A DNA stretch of 63,786 nucleotides, filler included, from Gemmatimonadota bacterium (lineage in GTDB: Bacteria; 4572-55; J002), in NCBI GenBank assembly GCA_003697105.1. It is 8 parts of 8 records of this genome, joined end to end, with 100 filler letters (N's around TTAATTAATTAA, not from the genome) between each part and the next. Parts side by side here need not be neighbours in the genome. Positions count along the whole stretch, not along the records: positions 40,551 to 50,985 come from RFFQ01000129.1; 7 more parts are not named here. One strand, given 5' to 3'. The translations under genes were made by a program, and so were the position numbers. This document shows positions 5,717 through 61,907 of the stretch, piece after piece; position 1 is the first letter of the stretch, and the number at the start of each line of letters is the position of its first letter. The notes below the pieces were generated by a model that saw nothing but the letters and a program-made list of their open reading frames with translations, had not been told where the DNA came from and ran no database searches.

Positions 5717-6405
5717 GTTCAAAAAAGCCCATTATTGCCATTGACGGTCCCGCCGGTTCGGGGAAAAGTTCCACGGCACGACAGGTTGCCGCCCGGTTAA
5801 ATTACATCCACATTGATACCGGTGCGATGTACCGTGCGATTACCCTCAAAGTACTACGCCACCAAATCGATGTGAACGATGCCGAAACCATCGGTGAATT
5901 GGCGCACCAAACCGATATCTATCAGGAACGAATCGACGGTGACGTTCATACCTTTTTGGATGGTGAGGATGTTTCTTCGCTGATCCGTACCCCGGAGATT
6001 TCGCAGAACGTGTCGCAAGTCGCCAGTATACCCCGTGTCCGGCAACGGCTGGTGCAATTCCAGCGGCAGATGGGGGAAAAAGGAGGAATTGTCCTCGAAG
6101 GACGTGACATCGGGACGGTCGTCTTCCCCAATGCGGAAATCAAAATCTTTATGCAGGCTTCCATTGAAGCCCGTGCTCAGCGCCGGCTCAAAGATTTGCA
6201 GGCGGATGGCATTGAGGTTGATCTCAAAGAATTGGAAGCCGAAATTGCCGCCCGCGATCACGCGGACTCCACACGCCAGACTAGCCCTCTTAAGCAAGCA
6301 CCGGATGCCATTTTGCTGGATACCACTACTCTGACAATGGAGGAACAAGTTCAATTTATCATTGATTTACATGATCAGTGGCTCAAATCCAGAGATGAAT
6401 CATGA
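5713..6405 (+). CDS. cmk: Cytidylate kinase
   Basis: IAIDGPAGSGKS, DTGAMYRA and EGRDIGTVVFP motifs. Confidence 0.95.
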   Translation: MSSKKPIIAIDGPAGSGKSSTARQVAARLNYIHIDTGAMYRAITLKVLRHQIDVNDAETIGELAHQTDIYQERIDGDVHTFLDGEDVSSLIRTPEISQNVSQVASIPRVRQRLVQFQRQMGEKGGIVLEGRDIGTVVFPNAEIKIFMQASIEARAQRRLKDLQADGIEVDLKELEAEIAARDHADSTRQTSPLKQAPDAILLDTTTLTMEEQVQFIIDLHDQWLKSRDES

Positions 6406-7346
6406 GGAGATTGGTTGTAATGGAAATTCGAGATCAAGTCAGGTTGCCTTTGACCATCAAGCCCGGTTCACCGATCTTCCGAACACGGTTGCCAATTAAC
6501 AATGTGAAAACGTGTGATTGCAAACCCAACCATATTAATTGCTTGACAGCCAAAGAATGGATTAAGTGTCAATTAGGAGTATGGCAGTTTACATATGAAA
6601 AACGTGATATTAGGGATAAAAACTTGCATCCAGCAACTTTCCCCCTTTCGCTAGCCAAAAGAGTGATTAGTTTGTTCACACATCAGGGAGAACTGGTATT
6701 AGACCCTTTTGCTGGAAGTGGAACCACTTTGTTGGCTGCCCAAGACTTAAATCGTAACGCCATTGGATTTGATTTGCAGGAGAAATATGTTGATTTATGC
6801 GCGGATCGCTTGCAAAGTAACAATCTATTTAACCAAGCGCAACAGATAGCTATTCAAGATGATGCTCTGTATATTCCAGAGTATCTGAAACCTGAAAGTG
6901 TGAGTTTGATTTGGACATCTCCACCCTACGCTAATTTACTTAATCGTAAGCGTAAAAATAAATCAAGGCGCGGTATAGAACGGAAAAATGAGCAATTTGG
7001 CAAAATTGAGCAATACTCTCAAAACCCTCGTGATTTGGGCACAATGACAATTGAACAATACACAACTGCGATGGGGGATATTTTTGAGAACCTGCTGCCA
7101 CTTTTGAAACCAAAAGGTCATTGTGTAATTAACGTGCCCGATATGTGGTGGGAAAACAAGAGAATCACCATACATATTGCTCTTGTAGAAGAACTTCGGA
7201 AACGGGGTTATGAATTGCGCAATACCATTATTTGGGATAGAACGAATATTGTAAATCGGGTCGGTATTTTTGGTTGGCCGTCTAACTACATTAATATGGG
7301 AACTACATTTGAATATTTGCTGGATTTCTGGCGTCCGGATCAGTAA
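6402..7346 (+). CDS. DNA amino-methyltransferase, probably N4-cytosine (start may be 6420)
   Basis: HPATFP, motif I VLDPFAGSGTT and motif IV WTSPPY; more AT-rich than its flanks. Confidence 0.85.
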   Translation: MRRLVVMEIRDQVRLPLTIKPGSPIFRTRLPINNVKTCDCKPNHINCLTAKEWIKCQLGVWQFTYEKRDIRDKNLHPATFPLSLAKRVISLFTHQGELVLDPFAGSGTTLLAAQDLNRNAIGFDLQEKYVDLCADRLQSNNLFNQAQQIAIQDDALYIPEYLKPESVSLIWTSPPYANLLNRKRKNKSRRGIERKNEQFGKIEQYSQNPRDLGTMTIEQYTTAMGDIFENLLPLLKPKGHCVINVPDMWWENKRITIHIALVEELRKRGYELRNTIIWDRTNIVNRVGIFGWPSNYINMGTTFEYLLDFWRPDQ

Positions 7347-7393
7347 GGATTATTCCTGCAACCGGCAGCGTTGCTTACGACACCGAGACTCAT

Positions 7394-8176
7394 ATGAAAA
7401 TCTACACGAAAGAATCTCTCATACAAGCACTATGTCAAATCCGTGACATGGGGTGGATACCCAATGCTAGAACGGACAACGATGGTGGTATAGGTAATAC
7501 ATTGGAAGATTTACTCGGTATTGAAGAAAACAATCTCCCAATTCCAAACGCATCTGAATGGGAATTAAAATGCCAAAGGCTGAATACCACGTCGTTGGTC
7601 ACTTTATTTCACATGGAACCATCTCCGCGAGCTCTCAAGTTTGTACCATCTATATTATTGCCCCAATATGGATGGCCTCACCAAGAAGCGGGGCGGAAGT
7701 ACGATACAACGGAAATGAGCTTTCGCCAAACGATTAGCGGGGTATCTCGGAGCGACCGGGGATTTATGGTCGTTGTTGATAGGAATGAGTGCAAAGTACT
7801 GGTATCTTTTGATGCTTCTGCTGTTGATTCGCGACATTCGCAGTGGCTTCAAATGGTAGAAAGGCGGGCAGGATTAGGTGAACTAGACCCTCAACCATAT
7901 TGGGGATTTGCAAATTTAGAGCACAAGGCCGGCACTAAACTTTTGAATTGTTTCTTCGTACAAGCCGAAACCAAGAGAGAGAAAGGGCAGCTTTTCTTCC
8001 GGTATTCAAAGATTTTTATTTTGGAATCCTTTAATGTGGAAGGATTATTGCGTGGGTTGGAGCAGGGATTTGTGTTTGTTGATTTTGACGCTCGTACCGG
8101 ACACAATCATGGCACCAAATTTAGGCTTCGCCGAAATAAATTTCCTGAGCTGTATGAAAAAGTTGTAGAAGTCTGA
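7394..8176 (+). CDS. MvaI/BcnI-family type II restriction endonuclease
   Basis: GGIGNTLEDLLGIEENN, WELK, TLFHMEP and HNHGTKFR motifs; directly follows the methyltransferase. Confidence 0.85.
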   Translation: MKIYTKESLIQALCQIRDMGWIPNARTDNDGGIGNTLEDLLGIEENNLPIPNASEWELKCQRLNTTSLVTLFHMEPSPRALKFVPSILLPQYGWPHQEAGRKYDTTEMSFRQTISGVSRSDRGFMVVVDRNECKVLVSFDASAVDSRHSQWLQMVERRAGLGELDPQPYWGFANLEHKAGTKLLNCFFVQAETKREKGQLFFRYSKIFILESFNVEGLLRGLEQGFVFVDFDARTGHNHGTKFRLRRNKFPELYEKVVEV

Positions 8177-45427: not shown

Positions 45428-46330
45428 ATGTTATCTGCCCTGATTGCCTACATTTTGTGGGGGTTATTACCGGTTTACTGGAAATGGCTGTCTCACATAC
45501 CGGCGTATGAGATTTTTCTCCACCGTACCGTGTGGTCGTTAGGGTTTGTTGTTGTCTTGCTGGCGTGGCAACGGCACTGGCACGGGTTGAAGCAGGCTCT
45601 GCACAGGCCGGGTGTGTTGTTCTCTGTGTTAGCAAGTTCTCTTTTGCTGGCAACCAACTGGCTAACCTACATTTGGGGGGTCACCTCCGGCAACATTGTA
45701 GAAACGAGCCTCGGCTATTTCATCAACCCGCTGGTCAATGTGCTATTCGGAATGCTTTTTTTACGGGAACAGTTGCGGTGGATGCAGGGTGTGGCCGTCC
45801 TGATCGCCGCTGCGGGAGTATTCTACCTCACCTTTAATTACGGACGGTTCCCTTGGATTGCCCTAACCTTGGCATTCAGTTTTGCGCTCTATAGCTTGCT
45901 CCGCAAAACCATGCCGCTTTCTTCATTGGAAGGCTTATCGATAGAAACGGCGATCCTTTTTTTACCGGCATTGGGCACCCTAATCGCTTTTGAATTCAAG
46001 GGGTTAGGGGCGTTTGGTCACACCGATATTCGAACAACGCTATTGCTAATCTTTACGGGTGTCGCCACCGCATCTCCGTTACTCTTTTTCGCCAGAGGCG
46101 CGAAGTCCATCACCTTAACAACCCTTGGTTTACTTCAATATCTTGCTCCAACGATCCAGTTTGGGTTAGGTGTCTTCGTCTATCATGAAGCGTTCAATAC
46201 CACCCGGTTAATCGGTTTTAGTCTGATTTGGTTCGCATTAGTGATCTACTCCGGCGAAAGTATTTGGAGCTACCACCGCCAGCGTAACGGAAATCGTCCG
46301 GGTAGCACATCACGGTTGCCGGTTTCTTAA
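45428..46330 (+). CDS. rarD: EamA-family transporter RarD
   Basis: AYILWGLLPVYW, SLGYFINPL and GLLQYLAP motifs. Confidence 0.9.
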   Translation: MLSALIAYILWGLLPVYWKWLSHIPAYEIFLHRTVWSLGFVVVLLAWQRHWHGLKQALHRPGVLFSVLASSLLLATNWLTYIWGVTSGNIVETSLGYFINPLVNVLFGMLFLREQLRWMQGVAVLIAAAGVFYLTFNYGRFPWIALTLAFSFALYSLLRKTMPLSSLEGLSIETAILFLPALGTLIAFEFKGLGAFGHTDIRTTLLLIFTGVATASPLLFFARGAKSITLTTLGLLQYLAPTIQFGLGVFVYHEAFNTTRLIGFSLIWFALVIYSGESIWSYHRQRNGNRPGSTSRLPVS

Positions 46331-48340
46331 TCGTATTTCCTCCCGGATGTCCTCCAAAGCGCGCACATACTCTTTTTGTTTGGGGTTCATACGTACCGCT
46401 TCTGCCAAATGATATTCCGCCAGTTCAAACCGATTTTCCACACGGTGTACCGCCGCTAAGGTATAATGGGTCCGGGCATGGGGCATAATCTCCAACGAGG
46501 TTTCTAATGCCTTACGGGCATCGTCCCACATTTTTTGCCCGATTAAATATTCGGCAAGTTGTTGGTAAATAACGGCATACCGTTCTTTATTATCCTCCCG
46601 TACCGGCTTGATAATGAATTGTACAAAAATTAAATCCATAAAATCGCAGTATGCCGGTTTGTAAGTCTTTTTGCTGGCAATGCCAAGGGGTAAGGAGTTA
46701 AAAAACGGTTGGTACTTGGGATATTGGGGGGTAAAGGTCACAAACGTGAAACGGTCTTCTCCTTGTTCTTTGAGGTCTAACATCAATTTGACAAGGGTGG
46801 CATCGTTCAAGCCATCCCCTTTGCGAGGATAAAAAAGCCATTTTTCCAGATAGATGGGACCCAATTCCAGCGGATACCACCAGACATCGGTCATGATCGT
46901 TTTACCCGGTTGTTGTTGGGAGACTTCAATGAACCGTTCGCTGGCTTTCTTTTTATGATACAATAGATAAACTCCGCGTAACTGATTGGTAACACTAAAT
47001 GCCAGTGCCACCAGCAAAACGCCAATCCAAACCGGCTTGAGGGATAGATGCGCCACCCGGATATGTTGCCATACGTACAGCGCAAGGATTGCACAAAGCG
47101 GGTAAAACATCAGCAAAAATCGAGAACCCCATTGCATGGCACCACTGAGCGGACTCACCAAGGAAAATTGAATCACAAACAACCCGAACGTCAAAAGAAT
47201 AAAATTAATCCAAGGACGGTCGTCCTCCGGCTCAATTAAATTTTTGACTAAGAATCCAACGATAACAAGGGGTGTGCCCACCATAAAATTGCAGGAATAC
47301 AAGCTCCCATAAACGGGATTATCATCCATGAATTTGGCAATTAACCCGATCAAACTGATGATCAACGCCGAAATAAACGTGCCCAGCAGGATTTTATCTT
47401 TTTTACGAAACGCCGGAAGAAATGCAACAAGCAAAAACGCGGCATAAGGGATCATCAAAATGGCACTGAGGGTGCGATCTTTCACGGTTTGAAAAAGCAA
47501 GCCATGAAATATCCGCCATTTTTCCGCTAAAATCGCCACCATCCCCGATTCCGGTTTAGCAACTTCACTCAATTCCCAGTTTTTTGTAATGTGAAACCCT
47601 AGCACAGACCCCGATACCTGCAAATTATACCACACCAGCGGAATCACCCCGATAGCAAAGGCAACCAAAAAAAAGATGATCCCTTTCCGGTGGCGATTGA
47701 ACAACAGATAGGAAATCACCATCGCTGTAACAAGGGCATAAAGTTCCTGCCGCATCCACGTAGCAACCGCCAGAGAGAACCCGGCAATTATCATCTGGGA
47801 TATTGGGGGTGTTTCCCATGAGCGAATGAGGATAAAAAAGGAGAGAACTACCAGCATCGCCGCCGGGGCATGCTCCCAAAATGTCAGGGCATAAAAAAAG
47901 ACCGGCGTCGCCAGACCGACTAGCGGGATGACCCATTCGGCACGATCTATTTGAAGATGTTTCGCCAGTAAAAAGGTGAGCCAGAGCAATAGCACGGCAG
48001 AGAGGCAGGGTATAATATATAACCCCCCATAACCCAGCCCTTGTAACATAAACGAGGAGATCAACGGGAAAAAGAGGGGATAGACCGAATATAATTTGCC
48101 GTCGTTTAGTGCCGAAAAGCGCACCGAAAGAGGCACATTGTAAAATTCGGGGTCAAGTGCCTGACCCGGATAGACCAGATTCACATGTTGGTAATCATTC
48201 GCAATAAGACTGCGGGCATAAATCAGTTTGGCACCATTATCCACTACCCAAAAGCCCTTTTGTGGATAAACAACAATAAGTACCATATAAATCAATGCAA
48301 TGAATATCATAAAAATAAAGGCATTCCGGGTGTTTACCAT
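46310..48340 (-). CDS. Multi-pass GT-C-type membrane glycosyltransferase-like protein with C-terminal TPR
   Basis: About 12 TM; DNGAK loop, FYALTFWEH, WGSRFL; TPR helices at the C-terminus. Confidence 0.7.
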   Translation of the reverse strand: MVNTRNAFIFMIFIALIYMVLIVVYPQKGFWVVDNGAKLIYARSLIANDYQHVNLVYPGQALDPEFYNVPLSVRFSALNDGKLYSVYPLFFPLISSFMLQGLGYGGLYIIPCLSAVLLLWLTFLLAKHLQIDRAEWVIPLVGLATPVFFYALTFWEHAPAAMLVVLSFFILIRSWETPPISQMIIAGFSLAVATWMRQELYALVTAMVISYLLFNRHRKGIIFFLVAFAIGVIPLVWYNLQVSGSVLGFHITKNWELSEVAKPESGMVAILAEKWRIFHGLLFQTVKDRTLSAILMIPYAAFLLVAFLPAFRKKDKILLGTFISALIISLIGLIAKFMDDNPVYGSLYSCNFMVGTPLVIVGFLVKNLIEPEDDRPWINFILLTFGLFVIQFSLVSPLSGAMQWGSRFLLMFYPLCAILALYVWQHIRVAHLSLKPVWIGVLLVALAFSVTNQLRGVYLLYHKKKASERFIEVSQQQPGKTIMTDVWWYPLELGPIYLEKWLFYPRKGDGLNDATLVKLMLDLKEQGEDRFTFVTFTPQYPKYQPFFNSLPLGIASKKTYKPAYCDFMDLIFVQFIIKPVREDNKERYAVIYQQLAEYLIGQKMWDDARKALETSLEIMPHARTHYTLAAVHRVENRFELAEYHLAEAVRMNPKQKEYVRALEDIREEIRLRNRQP

Positions 48341-48366
48341 GACTAGACCTCTTTGGTGTGAATATG

Positions 48367-48400
48367 AAAACGCCCCGTCAGATAAAACTGACAGGGCGAT
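48367..48400 (-). terminator. Terminator after tRNA-Trp
   Basis: CGCCCTGTCAG...CTGACGGGGCG followed by TTTT on the minus strand. Confidence 0.8.
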
Positions 48401-48404
48401 TACA

Positions 48405-48480
48405 TGGCAGGAGTGGCAGGAATCGAACCCGCAGCCCTCGGTTTTGGAGACCGATGCTCTGCCAATTGAGCTACACTCCT
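48405..48480 (-). tRNA. tRNA-Trp (CCA)
   Basis: AGGAGTGTAGCTCAATTGGCAGAGCATCGGTCTCCAAAACCGAGGGCTGCGGGTTCGATTCCTGCCACTCCTGCCA; full cloverleaf. Confidence 0.97.
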
Positions 48481-48493
48481 ATATTTGGACGGT

Positions 48494-48522
48494 ATATTAG
48501 TGCGATTGATCCCGATTGTCAA
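48494..48522 (-). promoter_or_regulatory. Sigma70-type promoter of tRNA-Trp
   Basis: TTGACA-17 bp-TAATAT just upstream of the tRNA. Confidence 0.75.
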
Positions 48523-48544
48523 GCGTTTTTTGCAAAGGATAACA

Positions 48545-48581
48545 AACAAAAAGCACGTCCTGCCTGTGCAAAACGTGCTTT
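48545..48581 (-). terminator. Terminator after the tRNA-like RNA
   Basis: AAAGCACGT...ACGTGCTTT followed by TTGTTTGTT on the minus strand. Confidence 0.7.
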
Positions 48582-48587
48582 GAATAC

Positions 48588-48699
48588 TGGTGAGCAGGGT
48601 GGAATCGAACCACAATCAGCCGCAACTGACCCGGTACTCGCAACTGGCTTTCTAACCCGGTAACAGCATGTTACTGCTTGCTGACCACAGCTCCTGCCC
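48588..48699 (-). ncRNA. 112-nt tRNA-like RNA with an atypical anticodon region
   Basis: Acceptor GGGCAGG/CCTGCTC-A-CCA, D-arm GCTG-TGGT-CAGC, T-arm GTGG-TTCGATT-CCAC, extra arm TCAGT-TGCG-GCTGA. Confidence 0.7.
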
Positions 48700-48898
48700 A
48701 GTGTGATGTCAATTTTTAGAATGATCGATAAATCAGTACAGATATATAATTGGTATAATCCGTGTTGTCAAGGTTTTTGTTAGGTGTTTTTGGTCGTTTT
48801 CAGAATAAAACGCGATTTTTCTTGCGATAAGGGGTGTATTTATGTATTTAAAAGAAAATACGGATGCCATTATGTTGATTTTTTATCTGGGAGAAACC

Positions 48899-51085: not shown

Positions 51086-52189
51086 CTGAATATTCGCCGG
51101 GGAGCTTTACTAGACCCATATTGTGGATCCGGGTCATCGTTTGCTTCAGGTCTGGAATGCCATTTATCCGAAATGTACGGGTTTGACATCAACCCGTTGG
51201 CGGTACTCATATCTCGTGTAAAATTCACAAAGGTATCGATTCCCGCTATTATGGAAACAAAAACAAAATTGCGCCATCGTGTTTTTGATTTTATTAAAGA
51301 GGAACAAAACCGTTGTAAACTGCCATTACCCAAAATCACGAATATGGAATACTGGTTTTCAAAAGAAGTCGCCCAGAATCTCAATATACTTCGGCATTTT
51401 ATCTTTCAAATTGAAAATAGGAACCTCCGGCGATTTTTTCTGGTGCCTTTTTCTGAAACAATCCGGGAATGTTCGTACACCCGAAATAACGAATTCAAGT
51501 TATACCGGATGAAACCCGAAGATATGCTATATTTTAACCCGGATGTGTTTGGCTTATACTTCAAAAAACTAAATGATACGATCTTCAGTTATACTCATTT
51601 TTACCTTCCCAAATTAGACGACAATGTAAAAGTCGAGGTCCATTATTCTGAATTTAAACCGAAGCAAAACTTTTATGATGTGATTTTGACTAGTCCACCT
51701 TATGGTGATAGCCGGACAACGGTCGCCTACGGCCAATTTTCCACGCTTTCAAATGAATGGTTGGGAATAGACTATGCCCGGAAAGTAGATAAAATGCTGA
51801 TGGGGGGTGTCACCGCAAAAACCCCTTACCGCAACGGTCTCATCGCTGACTACATTCAGGAAATCAAAAAGATTGATGAAAAGCGAGCCTTACAGGTTTC
51901 CGCATTTTATGATGACCTCGAAAAATCGATCCGCGAAGTGGCAAAAAGTGTCAAACAAAACGGAAAAGCAATTTACATTGTGGGCAACCGAACCGTCAAA
52001 AATATTCAATTACCTACCGACCAATTCATTGCCGAAAAATTTGAGGAAAACGGATTTCGACATCTCGTGACGTATGAACGAGCCTTAAGCAATAAAGTAA
52101 TGCCCTCCAAAAACTCCCCTACAAACAAAAGAGGGAAAACCGTTCATACCATGCTTTCGGAATATATCGTAATTTGTGACAAAAAATAG
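51086..52189 (+). CDS. DNA amino-methyltransferase, probably N4-cytosine, 5' truncated
   Basis: Frame open from the contig start; motif I LLDPYCGSGSS and motif IV ILTSPPY; AT-rich. Confidence 0.85.
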   Translation: MNIRRGALLDPYCGSGSSFASGLECHLSEMYGFDINPLAVLISRVKFTKVSIPAIMETKTKLRHRVFDFIKEEQNRCKLPLPKITNMEYWFSKEVAQNLNILRHFIFQIENRNLRRFFLVPFSETIRECSYTRNNEFKLYRMKPEDMLYFNPDVFGLYFKKLNDTIFSYTHFYLPKLDDNVKVEVHYSEFKPKQNFYDVILTSPPYGDSRTTVAYGQFSTLSNEWLGIDYARKVDKMLMGGVTAKTPYRNGLIADYIQEIKKIDEKRALQVSAFYDDLEKSIREVAKSVKQNGKAIYIVGNRTVKNIQLPTDQFIAEKFEENGFRHLVTYERALSNKVMPSKNSPTNKRGKTVHTMLSEYIVICDKK

Positions 52190-54470: not shown

Positions 54471-55469
54471 ATGCGCGACGAAGCCTATCTCCGAAAACAA
54501 CGAATCATTCACCTCTTATTGACAAACCACTATGGGGTCACCTACGAAGAAGTACGTCACCACTTACATCAAGATGGTTTTGAAGTGAGTACCCGCACCC
54601 TTTACCGCGATTTTAAAGCCCTGCAAACCCACCTGCCCTTGCTCCAAGATACTGATAAAGCAACGCGGCAAACACGCTGGCGAATTGATCCCGAAATGAA
54701 GCGAGTTCCCGGGGTCTTCACCGATCTGGAATGGCTCGCGCTGTGGTGTAACGGTCGATTTTTTCTGCAACAGGCGGTCTTTCCCACGACGACCCGTCAG
54801 GCACTCGCCAAAATTGAAGAGCGACTCTCTCCCGAAACCATCCAACGGATCAACCGCTTGAGTGAGCAGTTATTAACCCATCCGCGCGTGACGCACACGT
54901 CACTTGAACATCCCTCACCGTTTTTACCGGAATTGATTGACGCCATGACTCAGAATCGATGCGTCCAAATCCGATATTTTAATACCCGTCAAAATGAGAC
55001 CAAGATTCACAAAGTAGCTCCCGTCCGGCTCTGCACCTTTAATGATTCCCTCTATCTGTGGGCGTATTCGTACCGTCGGGAAGCTCCACGCACATTTTCG
55101 CTGGCAAATATAGACCAGTTTCAACCGTTGGATGAAAAATCGGACGCCGAAATCCGGGCGCAGGTGAATCAGTTTTATGCCTATGCCTTCGGGATGCTCG
55201 GCAGTGCGGATCCGGTACGCCTCAGCATTAAATTTGATGCGACAGTGGCGACTCATATCCGCTGTCGAAATTGGAGTCGGCTCGATCCGGAATTTCAGGA
55301 CCATAACGACGGCAGTATGACCTTAACGGTCACGGTTGCCGTCCCGGAGGAACTGTGTAACTGGTTGCGCAAATATGATGGTTATGCCGAAGTGTTGGAG
55401 CCGTTGTCTGTGCGAGAGGCGTTTATCGCTCGCATTCGACAGTCAGCAGAACGATATCAACTTTTATAA
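54471..55469 (+). CDS. wHTH-WYL-WCX transcriptional regulator
   Basis: VSTRTLYRDF (HTH), VAPVRL...LYLWAY...RTFSLANI (WYL), AEVLEPLSVR (WCX). Confidence 0.92.
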   Translation: MRDEAYLRKQRIIHLLLTNHYGVTYEEVRHHLHQDGFEVSTRTLYRDFKALQTHLPLLQDTDKATRQTRWRIDPEMKRVPGVFTDLEWLALWCNGRFFLQQAVFPTTTRQALAKIEERLSPETIQRINRLSEQLLTHPRVTHTSLEHPSPFLPELIDAMTQNRCVQIRYFNTRQNETKIHKVAPVRLCTFNDSLYLWAYSYRREAPRTFSLANIDQFQPLDEKSDAEIRAQVNQFYAYAFGMLGSADPVRLSIKFDATVATHIRCRNWSRLDPEFQDHNDGSMTLTVTVAVPEELCNWLRKYDGYAEVLEPLSVREAFIARIRQSAERYQLL

Positions 55470-55473
55470 AAAT

Positions 55474-55535
55474 AAGTGACCGGATTTGTCACTTGAGCAC
55501 GTTAAGCTCAGCGCAATGTGACAGATTCCATCACA
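55474..55535. promoter_or_regulatory. Two related inverted repeats, putative WYL operators
   Basis: AAGTGAC-N7-GTCACTT (55474-55494) and TGTGAC-N7-ATCACA (55517-55535). Confidence 0.6.
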
Positions 55536-55565
55536 CTCAACACCTGAAAACAACATGAGAACAAC

Positions 55566-56834
55566 ATGGCGAAACGAATTTTAATCATGACGTTGGGCAC
55601 CGGTCGCGGCGTTGAAAATGGCATTGCCAAGTGCATCCAGACCTTCAACCCGGATGTGGTACGCTTTATCACCACCCATCAGGGTAAGGAAACCATCCCC
55701 AAAGTGGCAGAAGCATTACAAACCTTGTATCAGTTGGAGATGCCGCAGGTGGTCGAACCGGTGATGCTGGAGCGGGAATCTGACGTAAATTTAACCTACC
55801 GCCAGAGTATTGCCGCCATTGATGAGGCGTTGCACGAGGACTATTCTCCCCATGAAATCTATATTGATTTCACCAGCGGCACGAAAGCGATGTCCGTGGG
55901 GATCAGCCTCGCGGCGTTTATGCGCGAATGCCCGCAGATGGTCTATATCGGCGGGTTTGATCGGGATGAAAACGGGCGTGTGATTACCGGCTCGGAAACG
56001 ATCATGAGTTTTACCCCCACCATTGTTTTTGCCGGCTATAAGGAAAAACTACTCAAGCAGATGTTCAATCACTACCAATTTGAAGCCGCTACCCAACTGG
56101 TGGATAATGTGTTGCAGACGGTACCCAATCCGGCGGTTCGCCAACCGTTTGAAACTCTCAAGTGGATCATCGCCGGCTATGCCCACTGGGATAAATTCGA
56201 TCATCAAGAGGCAAAACAGAACTTTGATAAGGTCTCTCGCGAGGTCTTGGAAACGTGGGGATTGACCCAGAATGTCGGTTTTCTCAAACGAATCGTCGGG
56301 AAACAAGAAACAATAAAACAGTCCCCAGCGGAATCTTTGCCGGCGACCCAGCGCTCTATCCCGGAACTCATCCCGGATTTGCTGGAAAACGCCTACCGAC
56401 GCGCTCAGGAAGGAAAATATGACGATGCTGTTGCTCGTTTATACCGCTTGATGGAACTGATCGGGCAAATGAAACTAGCGGAATATGGATTTGACACCGG
56501 CGACATCGATGTGAACCGATTTGAGGATGAGACCTTGAAAGCCAAATATGAAGCGATGCGCTCGCCTCGCACAAAAAAAGTGCAAATCGGACTGGCGAAA
56601 AATTATGAATTATTGCGGGATTTGGGGGAAGAAGAACTCGCCGCCATCTATCTGGATGACCCGAAAATGCAAGGTTTGCTCAATCAACGAAATAATTCCA
56701 TTTTGGCGCATGGTTTAACACCCATATCCAAAGACGATTTTGAAAAATTTTATGAAAAAGTTTGCACCTTAGCGGAAACGCTGTTACCCAATTTGAATGA
56801 AATGAGAAAACAAGCTGAATTTGTAACACTTTAA
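55566..56834 (+). CDS. CRISPR-associated CARF-HEPN effector (TIGR02710/Csm6-like)
   Basis: ILIMTLGTG and IDFTSGTKAMS (CARF), YDDAVARLYRLME, RNNSILAHG (HEPN R-x-H). Confidence 0.9.
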   Translation: MAKRILIMTLGTGRGVENGIAKCIQTFNPDVVRFITTHQGKETIPKVAEALQTLYQLEMPQVVEPVMLERESDVNLTYRQSIAAIDEALHEDYSPHEIYIDFTSGTKAMSVGISLAAFMRECPQMVYIGGFDRDENGRVITGSETIMSFTPTIVFAGYKEKLLKQMFNHYQFEAATQLVDNVLQTVPNPAVRQPFETLKWIIAGYAHWDKFDHQEAKQNFDKVSREVLETWGLTQNVGFLKRIVGKQETIKQSPAESLPATQRSIPELIPDLLENAYRRAQEGKYDDAVARLYRLMELIGQMKLAEYGFDTGDIDVNRFEDETLKAKYEAMRSPRTKKVQIGLAKNYELLRDLGEEELAAIYLDDPKMQGLLNQRNNSILAHGLTPISKDDFEKFYEKVCTLAETLLPNLNEMRKQAEFVTL

Positions 56835-56844
56835 CGGAGAACAA

Positions 56845-57377
56845 GTGATGCATAGCATAACCTTTGAATGTGAAACCATTACCCCCATGTTTATGGGCAG
56901 TGCCGACCCCAAAGATGTGGAACTACGCGCTCCCAGCATTAAAGGCGCTATGCGCTTCTGGTGGCGTGCCATGAATGCCCATCTGAGTTTGGACGAACTG
57001 AGAAAACAAGAAACGGAGATTTTTGGAGGTGGAGGTAACAATGGAAGAAAGAGTAATGTTATAATTCGAGTTCAATATAACAATCCTCCAAATATCAGGA
57101 GCGACTTTAAAAATTACTATAAATTAAATTGGTGCTTTAAAGGGAAATTAAAAGGTGATCATGCAGGCATTGGATATTTGCTTTATTCTATGGATTTAAA
57201 CAAAAACGAGTTTATTGATGTAGGATATCAATTTAAGATTGTAATAAAATCGGCTAGTTCAGATGCTTTGATTCAAGCTCTGTCAGCTTTTTGGTGTGCT
57301 ATATACTTTGGGGGTTTCGGTGGACGTTCAAGGCGAGGGGGAGGAAACCTAGAAATTCTTAGAGTAAATACAAAACA
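56845..57377 (+). CDS. cmr1: Type III-B CRISPR RAMP protein Cmr1, 3' truncated
   Basis: ETITPMFMG, ELRAPSIKGAMRFWWRA, EIFGG and the G-rich loop GGFGGRSRRGGG. Confidence 0.9.
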
Positions 57378-57477
57378 NNNNNNNNNNNNNNNNNNNNNNN
57401 NNNNNNNNNNNNNNNNNNNNNTTAATTAATTAANNNNNNNNNNNNNNNNNNNNNNNNNNNNNNNNNNNNNNNNNNNN
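57378..57477. other. Artificial contig linker
   Basis: N44-TTAATTAATTAA-N44. Confidence 0.99.
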
Positions 57478-61711: not shown

Positions 61712-61811
61712 NNNNNNNNNNNNNNNNNNNNNNNNNNNNNNNNNNNNNNNNNNNNTTAATTAATTAANNNNNNNNNNNNNNNNNNNNNNNNNNNNNNNNN
61801 NNNNNNNNNNN
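61712..61811. other. Artificial contig linker
   Basis: N44-TTAATTAATTAA-N44. Confidence 0.99.
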
Positions 61812-61907
61812 GGACACACCCGTACCCATTTCGAACACGGTCGTTAAGCCCTTCTGCGCCGATGGTACTGCACTGGAGACGGTGTGGGAGAGTAGGGCAT
61901 CGCCGGG
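61812..61907 (+). rRNA. rrf: 5S rRNA, 5' truncated
   Basis: CACCCGTACCCATTTCGAACACGG...GTTAAG...CGCCGATGGTACTG...GTGGGAGAGTAGG. Confidence 0.95.

What the first reader, a model, noticed from the sequence alone, without database searches (positions are those of the whole stretch)
48588..48699. Stand-alone 112-nt tRNA-like RNA lacking a canonical anticodon arm
Seen on the minus strand: a 7-bp acceptor stem (G2-U71 wobble, discriminator A, encoded CCA), a one-base linker, a 4-bp D-stem with a UGGU loop, a canonical UUCGAUU T-loop on a 4-bp stem and a 5-bp extra arm. The fold is 7/4, or 8/4 if U-1 pairs with A73. About 50 nt replace the anticodon arm. They can form GTAACA/TGTTAC and GGTT/AGCC hairpins, and TACCGGGT and CAGTTGCG each occur twice in this part of the RNA. 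It has its own terminator and an upstream TTGACA (48766-48771; no clear -10), while tRNA-Trp has a separate promoter. Inference: intact elbow and acceptor elements argue against simple decay. It could be a tRNA mimic or non-ribosomal aminoacyl donor comparable to allo-tRNAs, Y RNAs or the tmRNA tRNA-like domain, none of which it clearly matches. A duplicated pseudo-tRNA remains possible.
Basis: partly seen in the sequence, partly recalled or inferred. Interest (0 to 1): 0.8.

Follow-up and report, generated by a model that had tools for sequence, protein, structure and literature searches.

The report
Conserved oversized tRNA-like gene without anticodon
Next to a normal tryptophan tRNA gene lies a separate 112-base gene for an RNA that keeps the ends and elbow of a tRNA but has a rearranged, partly duplicated middle with no usable anticodon loop, and an almost identical copy turns up in one unrelated sediment sample.

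Summary
On the minus strand, 48699-48588 encodes a 112-nt RNA. It has a perfect 7-bp acceptor stem (G2·U71), A73 and an encoded CCA. It also has a GCUG/UGGU/CAGC hairpin, a 4-bp T stem with a consensus UUCGAUU loop, a 5-bp extra arm and its own terminator.

Default ARAGORN and Rfam gathering thresholds miss it. The best Rfam hit is tRNA-Sec at 24.8 bits against a cut-off of 47.

The 49-nt centre holds two collinear direct repeats. It offers three competing anticodon-like hairpins, and none of them has U33.

The key new evidence comes from one sediment run of another study. It holds a 158-nt contig that matches only 48587-48700, with 2 differences and no gaps, and its flanks are unlike the window. 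This argues for selection on the whole RNA, but it is a single low-depth contig.

No homologue was found in 167 Calditrichota genomes, 401 sampled Bacteroidota genomes, phage, plasmid or viral collections. The host is a poorly sampled deep FCB-group lineage from hot springs.

Best reading (0.45): a maintained, non-decoding tRNA-like small RNA descended from a long-variable-arm (Ser/Sec/allo-type) tRNA. A pseudo-tRNA remains a serious rival (0.28). Expression and charging are untested.

The parts
48588..48699 (-). The 112-nt tRNA-like RNA gene (G1 at 48699, CCA end at 48588). U-1 lies at 48700.
   Evidence: Sequence. The MFE fold has the acceptor, D, T and extra-arm helices. A contig from run X3 matches exactly 48587-48700.
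48693..48699 (-). Acceptor stem, 5' strand GGGCAGG (nt 1-7).
   Evidence: Pairs with nt 102-108 at probability 0.99-1.0.
48588..48598 (-). Acceptor stem 3' strand CCUGCUC (nt 102-108), discriminator A109 and the encoded CCA (nt 110-112).
   Evidence: The neighbouring tRNA-Trp gene also encodes its CCA.
48680..48691 (-). D-like hairpin GCUG-UGGU-CAGC (nt 9-20). Its tetraloop carries GG, as in Sec/allo-type D arms.
   Evidence: Pair probability 0.71. ARAGORN's alternative 3-bp D stem has probability 0.0.
48662..48678 (-). Hairpin nt 22-38 (AGCAG-UAACAUG-CUGUU; it can close to 7 bp with an ACA triloop). It sits where an anticodon arm should, one base after the D hairpin. Loop position 33 is A, not U.
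   Evidence: Pair probability 0.5-0.62. The X3 copy differs at nt 30 (C>U) inside this loop (48670 G>A).
48652..48662 (-). Direct repeat copy 1, UACCGGGUUAG (nt 38-48).
   Evidence: Family D1.
48626..48636 (-). Direct repeat copy 2, UACCGGGUCAG (nt 64-74).
   Evidence: Family D1, spacing 26.
48639..48646 (-). Direct repeat CAGUUGCG, copy 1 (nt 54-61).
   Evidence: Family D2.
48621..48628 (-). Direct repeat CAGUUGCG, copy 2 (nt 72-79).
   Evidence: Family D2, spacing 18.
48631..48647 (-). Second anticodon-arm candidate, nt 53-69 (CCAGU-UGCGAGU-ACCGG, with an A·C mismatch). It lies directly 5' of the extra arm. The triplet CGA sits at the anticodon position, but position 33 is G.
   Evidence: Both the CM alignment and MAFFT align it to the anticodon arm of a Calditrichota tRNA-Ser(CGA). 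Its thermodynamic probability is about 0.
48615..48630 (-). Extra (variable) arm hairpin, nt 70-85.
   Evidence: probability 0.36-0.48. It competes with a 54-62/75-83 helix.
48599..48613 (-). T arm: 4-bp stem GUGG/CCAC and loop UUCGAUU (nt 87-101).
   Evidence: (0.87-0.88).
48550..48581 (-). Intrinsic terminator-like hairpin plus T-run, starting 7 nt after the CCA.
48743..48771 (-). Promoter-like site: TTGACA (48771-48766), a 17-nt spacer, then TATATA (48748-48743). It implies a leader of about 35 nt.
   Evidence: Read. The scan did not list it because the last base of the -10 element is A.

Best explanation
This is a stand-alone tRNA-type gene. It descends from a tRNA with a long variable arm (the Ser / Sec / allo-tRNA shape), and short tandem duplications have remodelled its centre.

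The RNA keeps everything that tRNA maturation and 3'-end chemistry need:
- U at -1 and G at +1 for RNase P
- a perfect 7-bp acceptor helix
- A73 and an encoded CCA
- a consensus T loop that can dock on the GG of the D tetraloop

None of its three possible 'anticodon' loops has the invariant U33. It therefore most likely does not decode codons.

I propose that it is made as its own transcript, trimmed like a tRNA, and kept by selection as a stable tRNA-like small RNA that acts away from the decoding site. It could be a substrate, decoy or regulator for proteins that recognise the acceptor/T-arm half of tRNA, and it might be charged.

Shown: the anatomy, the transcription signals, the lack of a family match, and one near-identical copy elsewhere. 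Inferred: processing, stability, non-decoding and any charging.
For: Anatomy:
- The acceptor, T and D helices dominate the folding ensemble (probabilities 0.99-1.0, 0.88 and 0.71).
- CCA is encoded, as it is in the adjacent tRNA-Trp gene, and U precedes the 5' end of both genes.

Own transcription unit:
- A terminator lies at 48581-48550.
- TTGACA-17-TATATA lies upstream.
- tRNA-Trp has separate signals.

Conservation:
- Run X3 (sediment, another study) holds a 158-nt contig that matches only 48587-48700, with 2 other letters and 0 gaps.
- 16 nt on one side and 28 nt on the other are unlike the window.
- Nothing else of the 501-nt stretch is covered in that run apart from tRNA-Trp look-alikes.
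- So the duplicated centre is retained unchanged in length in an organism whose flanks differ.

Sequence is real: two separate assemblies (X1 contig of 3622 nt, X2 contig of 5613 nt) give it with 0 differences. Both may be the window's own source.

Non-decoding: the loops UAACAUG (nt 27-33) and UGCGAGU (nt 58-64) lack U33. ARAGORN's intron model needs a helix with probability 0.0.

Ancestry:
- ARAGORN -i calls it a class II tRNA-Ser.
- The only hit at E <= 0.01 of the model built on it, among 151 Calditrichota genomes, is a tRNA-Ser(CGA) at 30.1 bits.
- The best Rfam family is tRNA-Sec.
Against: - The conservation rests on one low-depth contig (3.8) in one run. I could not see its letters, and only one of its two differences was listed.
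- Recent transfer, or a close relative with rearranged flanks, would give the same picture without selection.
- No expression data exist. X3 carries a transcriptome label but is flagged 'probably DNA'.
- The overall fold is no more stable than shuffles (z = -1.19).
- The centre has several competing folds and no single supported structure.
- Direct repeats are what replication slippage leaves in a dying gene.
- The acceptor plus T stack is 11 bp. It reaches 12 bp only if U-1 pairs with A73, which removes the discriminator.
- No homologue was found in 167 Calditrichota genomes, 401 sampled Bacteroidota genomes, 10 further genomes, 80 syntenic-gene loci, viral contigs, or phages and plasmids. 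None of these is a close relative of the host, so this says little either way.
Confidence: 0.45

Rival explanations
1. It is a pseudo-tRNA: a former class II tRNA (Ser-type, or selC/allo-type) gene disabled by slippage duplications in its centre. It persists without function. The good acceptor and T arm are simply what has not yet decayed.
For: - Two collinear direct repeats (11 nt with 1 mismatch, and 8 nt exact) lie in the centre. A further imperfect copy of nt 1-13 at nt 14-27 is my reading.
- No canonical anticodon loop exists.
- Default ARAGORN and Rfam reject it.
- The folding z-score is -1.19 and the centre has competing folds.
- Mukai et al. 2017 (PMC5389517, section 16 read) describe allo-tRNA pseudogenes and inactive allo-tRNAs with five-stem junctions.
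Against: - The acceptor (7 of 7 pairs), T stem (4 of 4), T loop, D tetraloop, A73-CCA, terminator and promoter-like site are all intact.
- The X3 copy has only 2 differences and no gap over 114 nt while its flanks are unlike the window. A neutral sequence carrying slippage-prone repeats should differ more and in length.
Confidence: 0.28
2. It is a working decoder. One form would be a tRNA-Ser with an 18-nt insertion in the anticodon loop that is removed or tolerated (ARAGORN's tRNA-Ser(GCU) model). The other would be an allo-tRNA-like missense or nonsense suppressor that reads with the nt 22-38 hairpin (ACA here, AUA in the X3 copy).
For: - ARAGORN with introns allowed returns tRNA-Ser(GCU): 94 nt plus an 18-nt intron at position 37/38.
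- The nt 22-38 hairpin sits at the correct place after the D arm and can open to a 5-bp stem with a 7-nt loop.
- Allo-tRNAs with odd shapes and very diverse anticodons are active in E. coli (PMC5389517, section 15 read).
- Hairpin aptamers placed at the tip of the long variable arm can be compatible with translation (PMC7590224, passages seen).
Against: - The helix that ARAGORN's model needs (26-30/56-60) and its 3-bp D stem both have probability 0.0 in the ensemble.
- ARAGORN's register also shifts the acceptor, so the encoded CCA no longer follows a discriminator.
- Bacteria have no known machinery for an 18-nt tRNA intron (established knowledge).
- Every candidate loop lacks U33.
- The presumed anticodon differs between two otherwise 98% identical copies.
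Confidence: 0.1
3. It is a decayed or aberrant selenocysteine tRNA (selC) read in a nested register. That register has a 9-bp acceptor from nt 15, a 6-bp D stem GUAACA/UGUUAC and a 4-bp T stem, with nt 1-14 as leader.
For: - tRNA-Sec is the best Rfam family (24.8 bits, E 0.0029-0.012) and its alignment uses exactly this register.
- The 6-bp D stem has no mismatch.
Against: - The score is far below the cut-off of 47.
- Two of the nine acceptor pairs are mismatches, and no discriminator-CCA remains.
- No UCA sits in a 7-nt loop with U33.
- The 26-31/35-40 helix has probability 0.04, against 0.99-1.0 for the outer acceptor.
- No Sec genes were seen among the window's ORFs scanned. The rest of the genome is not available.
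Confidence: 0.05

Closest known systems
Allo-tRNAs and the 'irregular tRNAs' of Mukai et al. 2017 (NAR 45:2776, PMC5389517; abstract and sections 13, 15, 16 read) and Krahn et al. 2020 (PMC7609411, section 7 read)
   Same: - It surfaces as a sub-threshold tRNA-Sec covariance-model hit.
- The T stem is shortened to 4 bp, with a possible 8/4 split.
- The D arm has a tetraloop.
- The variable region is long.
- The anticodon is non-standard and not conserved.
- Some described members have five-stem junctions, extra loops or no translational activity.
   Different: - The host is a deep FCB-group bacterium, not Clostridia, Proteobacteria or Acidobacteria.
- The D stem is 4 bp, not long.
- The discriminator is A73, not G/U73.
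- The 12-bp acceptor branch exists only if U-1 pairs with A73.
- The centre is about 49 nt, with two anticodon-like hairpins and internal repeats.
- At 112 nt it is longer than the canonical tRNA-Sec that PMC7590224 calls the largest tRNA structure.
- No toxin-antitoxin or transposon neighbour was seen in the scanned ORFs.
Bacterial class II tRNA-Ser
   Same: - It has a long extra arm directly before the T arm.
- ARAGORN -i calls it tRNA-Ser.
- The only hit at E <= 0.01 of the model built on it is a tRNA-Ser(CGA).
- nt 53-69 align to that tRNA's anticodon arm, with the CGA triplets aligned.
   Different: - It has about 27 extra nt between the D arm and that hairpin.
- Position 33 is G.
- The stem has an A·C mismatch.
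- The discriminator is A73 rather than the usual G73 (recalled).
- The linker is one base.
- The T stem is 4 bp.
- It is not detected at default thresholds.
tRNA-Sec (Rfam RF01852)
   Same: It is the best-scoring Rfam family. It shares the D tetraloop containing GG, the long extra arm and the 4-bp T stem of the 9/4 type.
   Different: It scores 24.8 bits against a cut-off of 47. It has no UCA anticodon. The matching register has 2 acceptor mismatches and no free NCCA end.
tmRNA tRNA-like domain, and tRNA-like small RNAs such as B. cereus tRNA-Other (cited in PMC5389517, section 16)
   Same: Both have an acceptor/T-arm module with a CCA end and no decoding anticodon. They are examples of charged RNAs that do not act as ordinary adaptors.
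   Different: ARAGORN tmRNA mode finds nothing and Rfam lists no tmRNA match. There is no tag reading frame. The wobble pair is G2·U71, not G3·U70.

Membership tests
Canonical bacterial tRNA (Rfam RF00005 / ARAGORN) | Detected at standard thresholds | tested here: not met
   Default ARAGORN finds only tRNA-Trp. The Rfam gathering search finds only tRNA-Trp and a 5S rRNA.
Canonical bacterial tRNA (Rfam RF00005 / ARAGORN) | 7-bp acceptor stem, discriminator, CCA end | tested here: met
   G1-G7 pair with C102-C108 with no mismatch, followed by A109 and an encoded CCA.
Canonical bacterial tRNA (Rfam RF00005 / ARAGORN) | 5-bp T stem with a T-loop consensus, and GG in the D loop for the elbow | tested here: inconclusive
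   The loop UUCGAUU and the G53-C61 equivalent are present, and GG sits in the UGGU tetraloop. The T stem is only 4 bp, because the fifth position would be U86·C102 and C102 already pairs with G7.
Canonical bacterial tRNA (Rfam RF00005 / ARAGORN) | Anticodon arm: 5-bp stem and a 7-nt loop with U33 and a purine at 37 | tested here: not met
   The nt 27-33 loop UAACAUG has A at position 33 and U at 37. The nt 58-64 loop UGCGAGU has G at 33. ARAGORN's AUGCUG/A loop needs an 18-nt intron and a helix of probability 0.0.
tRNA-Sec (RF01852) | Score at or above the gathering cut-off | tested here: not met
   24.8 bits against 47.
tRNA-Sec (RF01852) | UCA anticodon in a canonical loop | tested here: not met
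   UCA occurs at nt 16-18 (in the D hairpin) and at nt 71-73 (preceded by G, in the extra-arm stem).
tRNA-Sec (RF01852) | 13-bp acceptor branch (8/5 in bacteria) and a 6-bp D stem with a tetraloop | tested here: not met
   The outer fold is 7/4 or 8/4 with a 4-bp D stem. The nested 9/4 register has 2 acceptor mismatches and a 3-nt D loop.
Allo-tRNA (Mukai et al. 2017) | 12-bp acceptor branch split 8/4 or 9/3 | tested here: inconclusive
   The split is 8/4 only if U-1 (48700) pairs with A109, which leaves CCA without a discriminator. Otherwise it is 7/4, or 11 bp.
Allo-tRNA (Mukai et al. 2017) | Long D stem with a tetraloop, and a long anticodon stem | tested here: inconclusive
   A tetraloop is present but the D stem is 4 bp. 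The nt 22-38 hairpin can form 7 bp, but then its loop is only 3 nt.
Allo-tRNA (Mukai et al. 2017) | Long V arm plus G73/U73 (Ser identity) | tested here: not met
   A long extra arm is present, but the discriminator is A. The paper's feature list comes from PMC5389517, section 13.
Allo-tRNA (Mukai et al. 2017) | Sequence or covariance-model similarity to published allo-tRNAs | not testable with these tools
tmRNA | tRNA-like domain with G3·U70 plus a tag reading frame and pseudoknots | tested here: not met
   ARAGORN -m finds nothing. Rfam lists no tmRNA match at E <= 10. The wobble pair is at 2·71.
Bacterial Y RNA / YrlA | Match to the Rfam families; ends form a Ro-binding stem rather than an acceptor with CCA | tested here: not met
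   No such family appears at E <= 10. The ends form an acceptor stem with ACCA. No Ro-like gene was seen among the scanned ORFs, though not all ORFs were scanned.

The most novel reading that the evidence does not exclude
This would be a new family of selected, non-decoding tRNA-like small RNAs in a deep-branching FCB-group lineage. The RNA is matured like a tRNA and ends in CCA. It carries two anticodon-like hairpins built by internal duplication. It would be aminoacylated (A73, G·U near the top of the acceptor) and would serve off the ribosome, as an aminoacyl donor or as a decoy or sensor for tRNA-binding proteins.
Probability: 0.25. Interest if true: 0.75.

Novelty: new variant of a known kind. 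Interest (0 to 1): 0.5.

Why it matters
Irregular tRNAs (Sec, Pyl, allo-tRNAs) have shown how the translation system tolerates and exploits new RNA shapes, and they have become tools for recoding.

This RNA is a 112-nt tRNA-shaped gene that keeps a flawless acceptor/T-arm half, has no anticodon, and is retained almost unchanged in a second environment. If it is functional, it would extend the range of tRNA-derived RNAs to an unsampled phylum-level lineage. It would also be a natural example of a large insertion next to the variable arm.

If it is only a pseudogene, it is a neat record of how slippage duplications dismantle a tRNA gene. It would also serve as a caution for tRNA annotation in metagenome bins.

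Tried and rejected
Homologue searches that found nothing useful:
- Whole genome of the window: not held.
- 80 loci around the neighbouring YgiQ-type radical SAM gene, taken from species genomes. No RNA homologue or synteny was found.
- DNA search in 10 genomes: chance hits only.
- All 167 Calditrichota genomes: 0 hits at E <= 0.01.
- 401 evenly drawn Bacteroidota genomes: 1 hit, which lies in a coding sequence.
- Covariance model R1 in 151 Calditrichota genomes: 1 hit, an ordinary tRNA-Ser(CGA).
- Three exact patterns in viral contigs: 0 hits each.
- Phages and plasmids: no match.
- E. coli genomes: only tRNA-Trp.
- Paralogues in the window: none longer than 11 nt.
- Metagenome pattern scan: 1 contig, L083, which is a different irregular tRNA-like RNA (R1 12.7 bits, E 0.28).

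Host relatives:
- The downstream TPR/glycosyltransferase protein has no relative above 41% identity. It had 1 weak hit in 167 Calditrichota genomes and 0 hits in 401 Bacteroidota genomes.
- HtpG is at best 75% identical to any relative.
- Close relatives were therefore out of reach, and 'absent in relatives' could not be tested.

X20 covers only the tRNA-Trp part.

Ideas rejected:
- Archaeal-type intron: the forced fold shows no bulge-helix-bulge shape, and bacteria lack the enzyme.
- tmRNA.
- Derivation from the neighbouring tRNA-Trp: only the T loop is shared.
- att-site remnant: no repeat of the 3' end and no integrase among the scanned ORFs.

Tools and files not available:
- Supplements of PMC5389517 (Figures S5 and S6, with five-stem and irregular tRNA structures) could not be seen and may hold closer look-alikes.

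Literature: two full-text searches found no description of such an RNA.

Full report
**What is there**

Read on the minus strand, window 48699-48588 gives a 112-nt RNA (RNA nt i = 48700-i). Its elements are:
- G1-G7 pair without mismatch with C102-C108, including G2·U71. A109 follows as discriminator, and CCA is encoded.
- A8 is the only linker base. GCUG-UGGU-CAGC (nt 9-20) forms a hairpin whose tetraloop carries GG.
- The T arm is GUGG-UUCGAUU-CCAC (nt 87-101), with only 4 pairs.
- nt 70-85 form a 5-6 bp extra arm.

ViennaRNA's ensemble supports these helices. Pair probabilities are 0.99-1.0 for the acceptor, 0.87-0.88 for the T stem, 0.71 for the D stem and 0.36-0.48 for the extra arm. The total energy is no better than shuffles (z = -1.19).

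An intrinsic terminator-like hairpin starts 7 nt after the CCA (48581-48550). Upstream, TTGACA (48771-48766) is followed after 17 nt by TATATA (48748-48743). I read this; the scan's rule does not accept it.

The tRNA-Trp gene downstream (48405-48480) has its own promoter-like site and terminator.

**The centre**

Between the D hairpin and the extra arm lie 49 nt (nt 21-69). They contain two collinear direct repeats:
- UACCGGGU(U/C)AG at nt 38-48 and 64-74
- CAGUUGCG at nt 54-61 and 72-79

This is the footprint of short tandem duplications. The centre offers three 'anticodon arms' that exclude each other.

(a) nt 22-38 (AGCAG-UAACAUG-CUGUU) sits one base after the D hairpin, which is the canonical place. 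It is the thermodynamically preferred helix (0.5-0.62). Its loop has A where U33 should be, and it can zip up to a 3-nt loop.

(b) nt 53-69 (CCAGU-UGCGAGU-ACCGG, with one A·C mismatch) sits directly before the extra arm, which is the other canonical boundary. The covariance model built here and MAFFT both align it with the anticodon arm of a Calditrichota tRNA-Ser(CGA), with the CGA triplets aligned. Position 33 is G, however, and the helix has a probability of about 0.

The helix this model needs (26-30/56-60) and its 3-bp D stem both have probability 0.0. Its register also moves the acceptor by one base, so the encoded CCA is lost.

Further competing helices exist, for example 40-43/66-69 and 54-62/75-83. 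No loop in this RNA looks able to decode.

**Known families**

Default ARAGORN and Rfam at gathering thresholds do not see the gene. In E-value mode the only tRNA-clan match kept is tRNA-Sec: 24.8 bits against a cut-off of 47, E 0.003-0.012. It uses a nested register with 2 mismatches in a 9-bp acceptor. ARAGORN's tmRNA mode finds nothing.

The closest described things are the allo-tRNAs and 'irregular tRNAs' of Mukai et al. 2017 (PMC5389517; abstract and sections 13, 15 and 16 read; review PMC7609411, section 7 read). Those also came up as sub-threshold tRNA-Sec hits. They have 8/4 or 9/3 acceptor branches, D tetraloops, long variable arms and very diverse anticodons. They include inactive members with five-stem junctions or extra loops.

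The present RNA shares the general style but fails or leaves open several defining features:
- The 8/4 split exists only if U-1 pairs with A73.
- The D stem is short.
- The discriminator is A.
- The centre is about twice as long as expected.
- The host belongs to a different phylum-level group.

**Host and relatives**

No whole genome is held. Only two hot-spring runs of one study hold the full stretch, and they may be its source.
- HtpG is at most 75% identical to any relative, with named hits from Calditrichaeota, KSB1 and Chloroherpeton at 69-72%.
- The TPR/glycosyltransferase downstream of tRNA-Trp has no relative above 41%.
- The window carries T9SS-type sorting domains.

The host is therefore a poorly sampled deep branch of the FCB group. 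Searches for the RNA found nothing beyond chance hits or ordinary tRNAs in any collection tried (details under Tried and rejected). None of those genomes is a close relative.

**The one informative relative**

I laid Logan contigs of four runs on 48350-48850.
- X1 and X2 each cover the whole stretch in one contig (3622 nt and 5613 nt) with 0 differences and no indel. The sequence, repeats included, is therefore not an assembly slip. These runs are probably the source and are not independent.
- X3 is a sediment run of another study. It holds a 158-nt contig (depth 3.8) whose positions 17-130 match exactly 48587-48700, with 2 other letters and no gap.
- The 16 nt and 28 nt on either side of that match do not fit the window. 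Apart from tRNA-Trp look-alikes from many organisms, nothing else of the stretch is covered in X3.
- The one listed difference is 48670 G>A, which is C30>U in the RNA. It lies in the loop of hairpin (a), or gives a U·G pair in the other two readings, so it does not discriminate between folds.

A second organism thus carries the same RNA, about 98% identical and with the duplicated centre at full length. The similarity begins at U-1 and ends one base after the CCA. That pattern is what a selected RNA gene looks like. It is not what a neutral remnant with slippage-prone repeats should look like.

Several caveats apply:
- This is one low-depth contig, and I could not see its letters.
- Recent transfer cannot be excluded.
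- The library carries a transcriptome label, but the tool flags it as probably DNA, so expression is not shown.

**Reading**

I put 0.45 on a maintained, non-decoding tRNA-like small RNA that descends from a long-variable-arm tRNA. Its proposed life history is:
- It is made from its own promoter.
- RNase P cuts it between U-1 and G1. The preference of RNase P for U-1, G+1 and RCCA is established knowledge that I recall and did not test here.
- It ends in CCA.
- It folds an intact elbow.
- It acts through its acceptor/T-arm half, charged or not.

Which protein it serves is open. No aminoacyl-transferase, synthetase paralogue or toxin-antitoxin pair was seen among the ORFs scanned.

The rivals are a plain pseudo-tRNA at 0.28, a working decoder (tRNA-Ser with an insertion, or an allo-type suppressor) at 0.10, and a decayed selC at 0.05. 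The remainder goes to things I have not thought of.

**Novelty and interest**

This is a new variant of a known kind (irregular, Sec/allo-like tRNA genes) in an unsampled lineage. It is worth a follow-up because the decisive tests are cheap: a tRNA inventory of the full bin, a covariance-model search of related bins and of the sediment data set, and small-RNA sequencing. With two sequences and no expression data it stays at moderate interest.

Noticed in passing
L083:443-516 (+) and L083:363-434 (+): This metagenome contig came from the pattern scan. It carries what looks like the two ends of a tmRNA tRNA-like domain (G3·U70...UCCACC) with only 28 nt between them instead of about 330 (Rfam tmRNA 33.6 bits, below the cut-off of 47). 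Just upstream lies a very stable tRNA-shaped fold (z = -4.5) that ARAGORN calls tRNA-???. These are two tandem irregular tRNA-like genes, and they are not homologous to the window RNA.
   Followed up: partly
window 61805-61898 (+): A lone 5S rRNA match (47.7 bits, model positions 14-110 of 120) with no 16S or 23S match anywhere in the window.
   Followed up: no
window 6402-8176, 51173-52189 and 54471-57429: Defence-type genes are scattered through the window. They are an N6_N4 methylase plus an MvaI/BcnI endonuclease, an Eco57I-like methylase 360 bp after the YgiQ-type gene, and a WYL/WCX regulator, a CARF protein (TIGR02710) and a RAMP protein of a type III CRISPR kind. No CRISPR array was looked for.
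   Followed up: no
window 48673-48699 (-), RNA nt 1-27: nt 1-13 (GGGCAGGAGCUGU) and nt 14-27 (GGUCAGCAAGCAGU) look like a further imperfect tandem copy. This explains why the Rfam tRNA-Sec model finds a nested second acceptor register starting at nt 15. It also means the 'D hairpin' pairs a piece of one copy with a piece of the other (own reading). Its significance was not tested.
   Followed up: partly
window 46310-48340 (-): The 676-aa TPR protein with a PMT_2-like glycosyltransferase part, downstream of tRNA-Trp, has almost no relatives. The best is 41% identical, and only 13 proteins reach E <= 1e-10, including the window's own.
   Followed up: no
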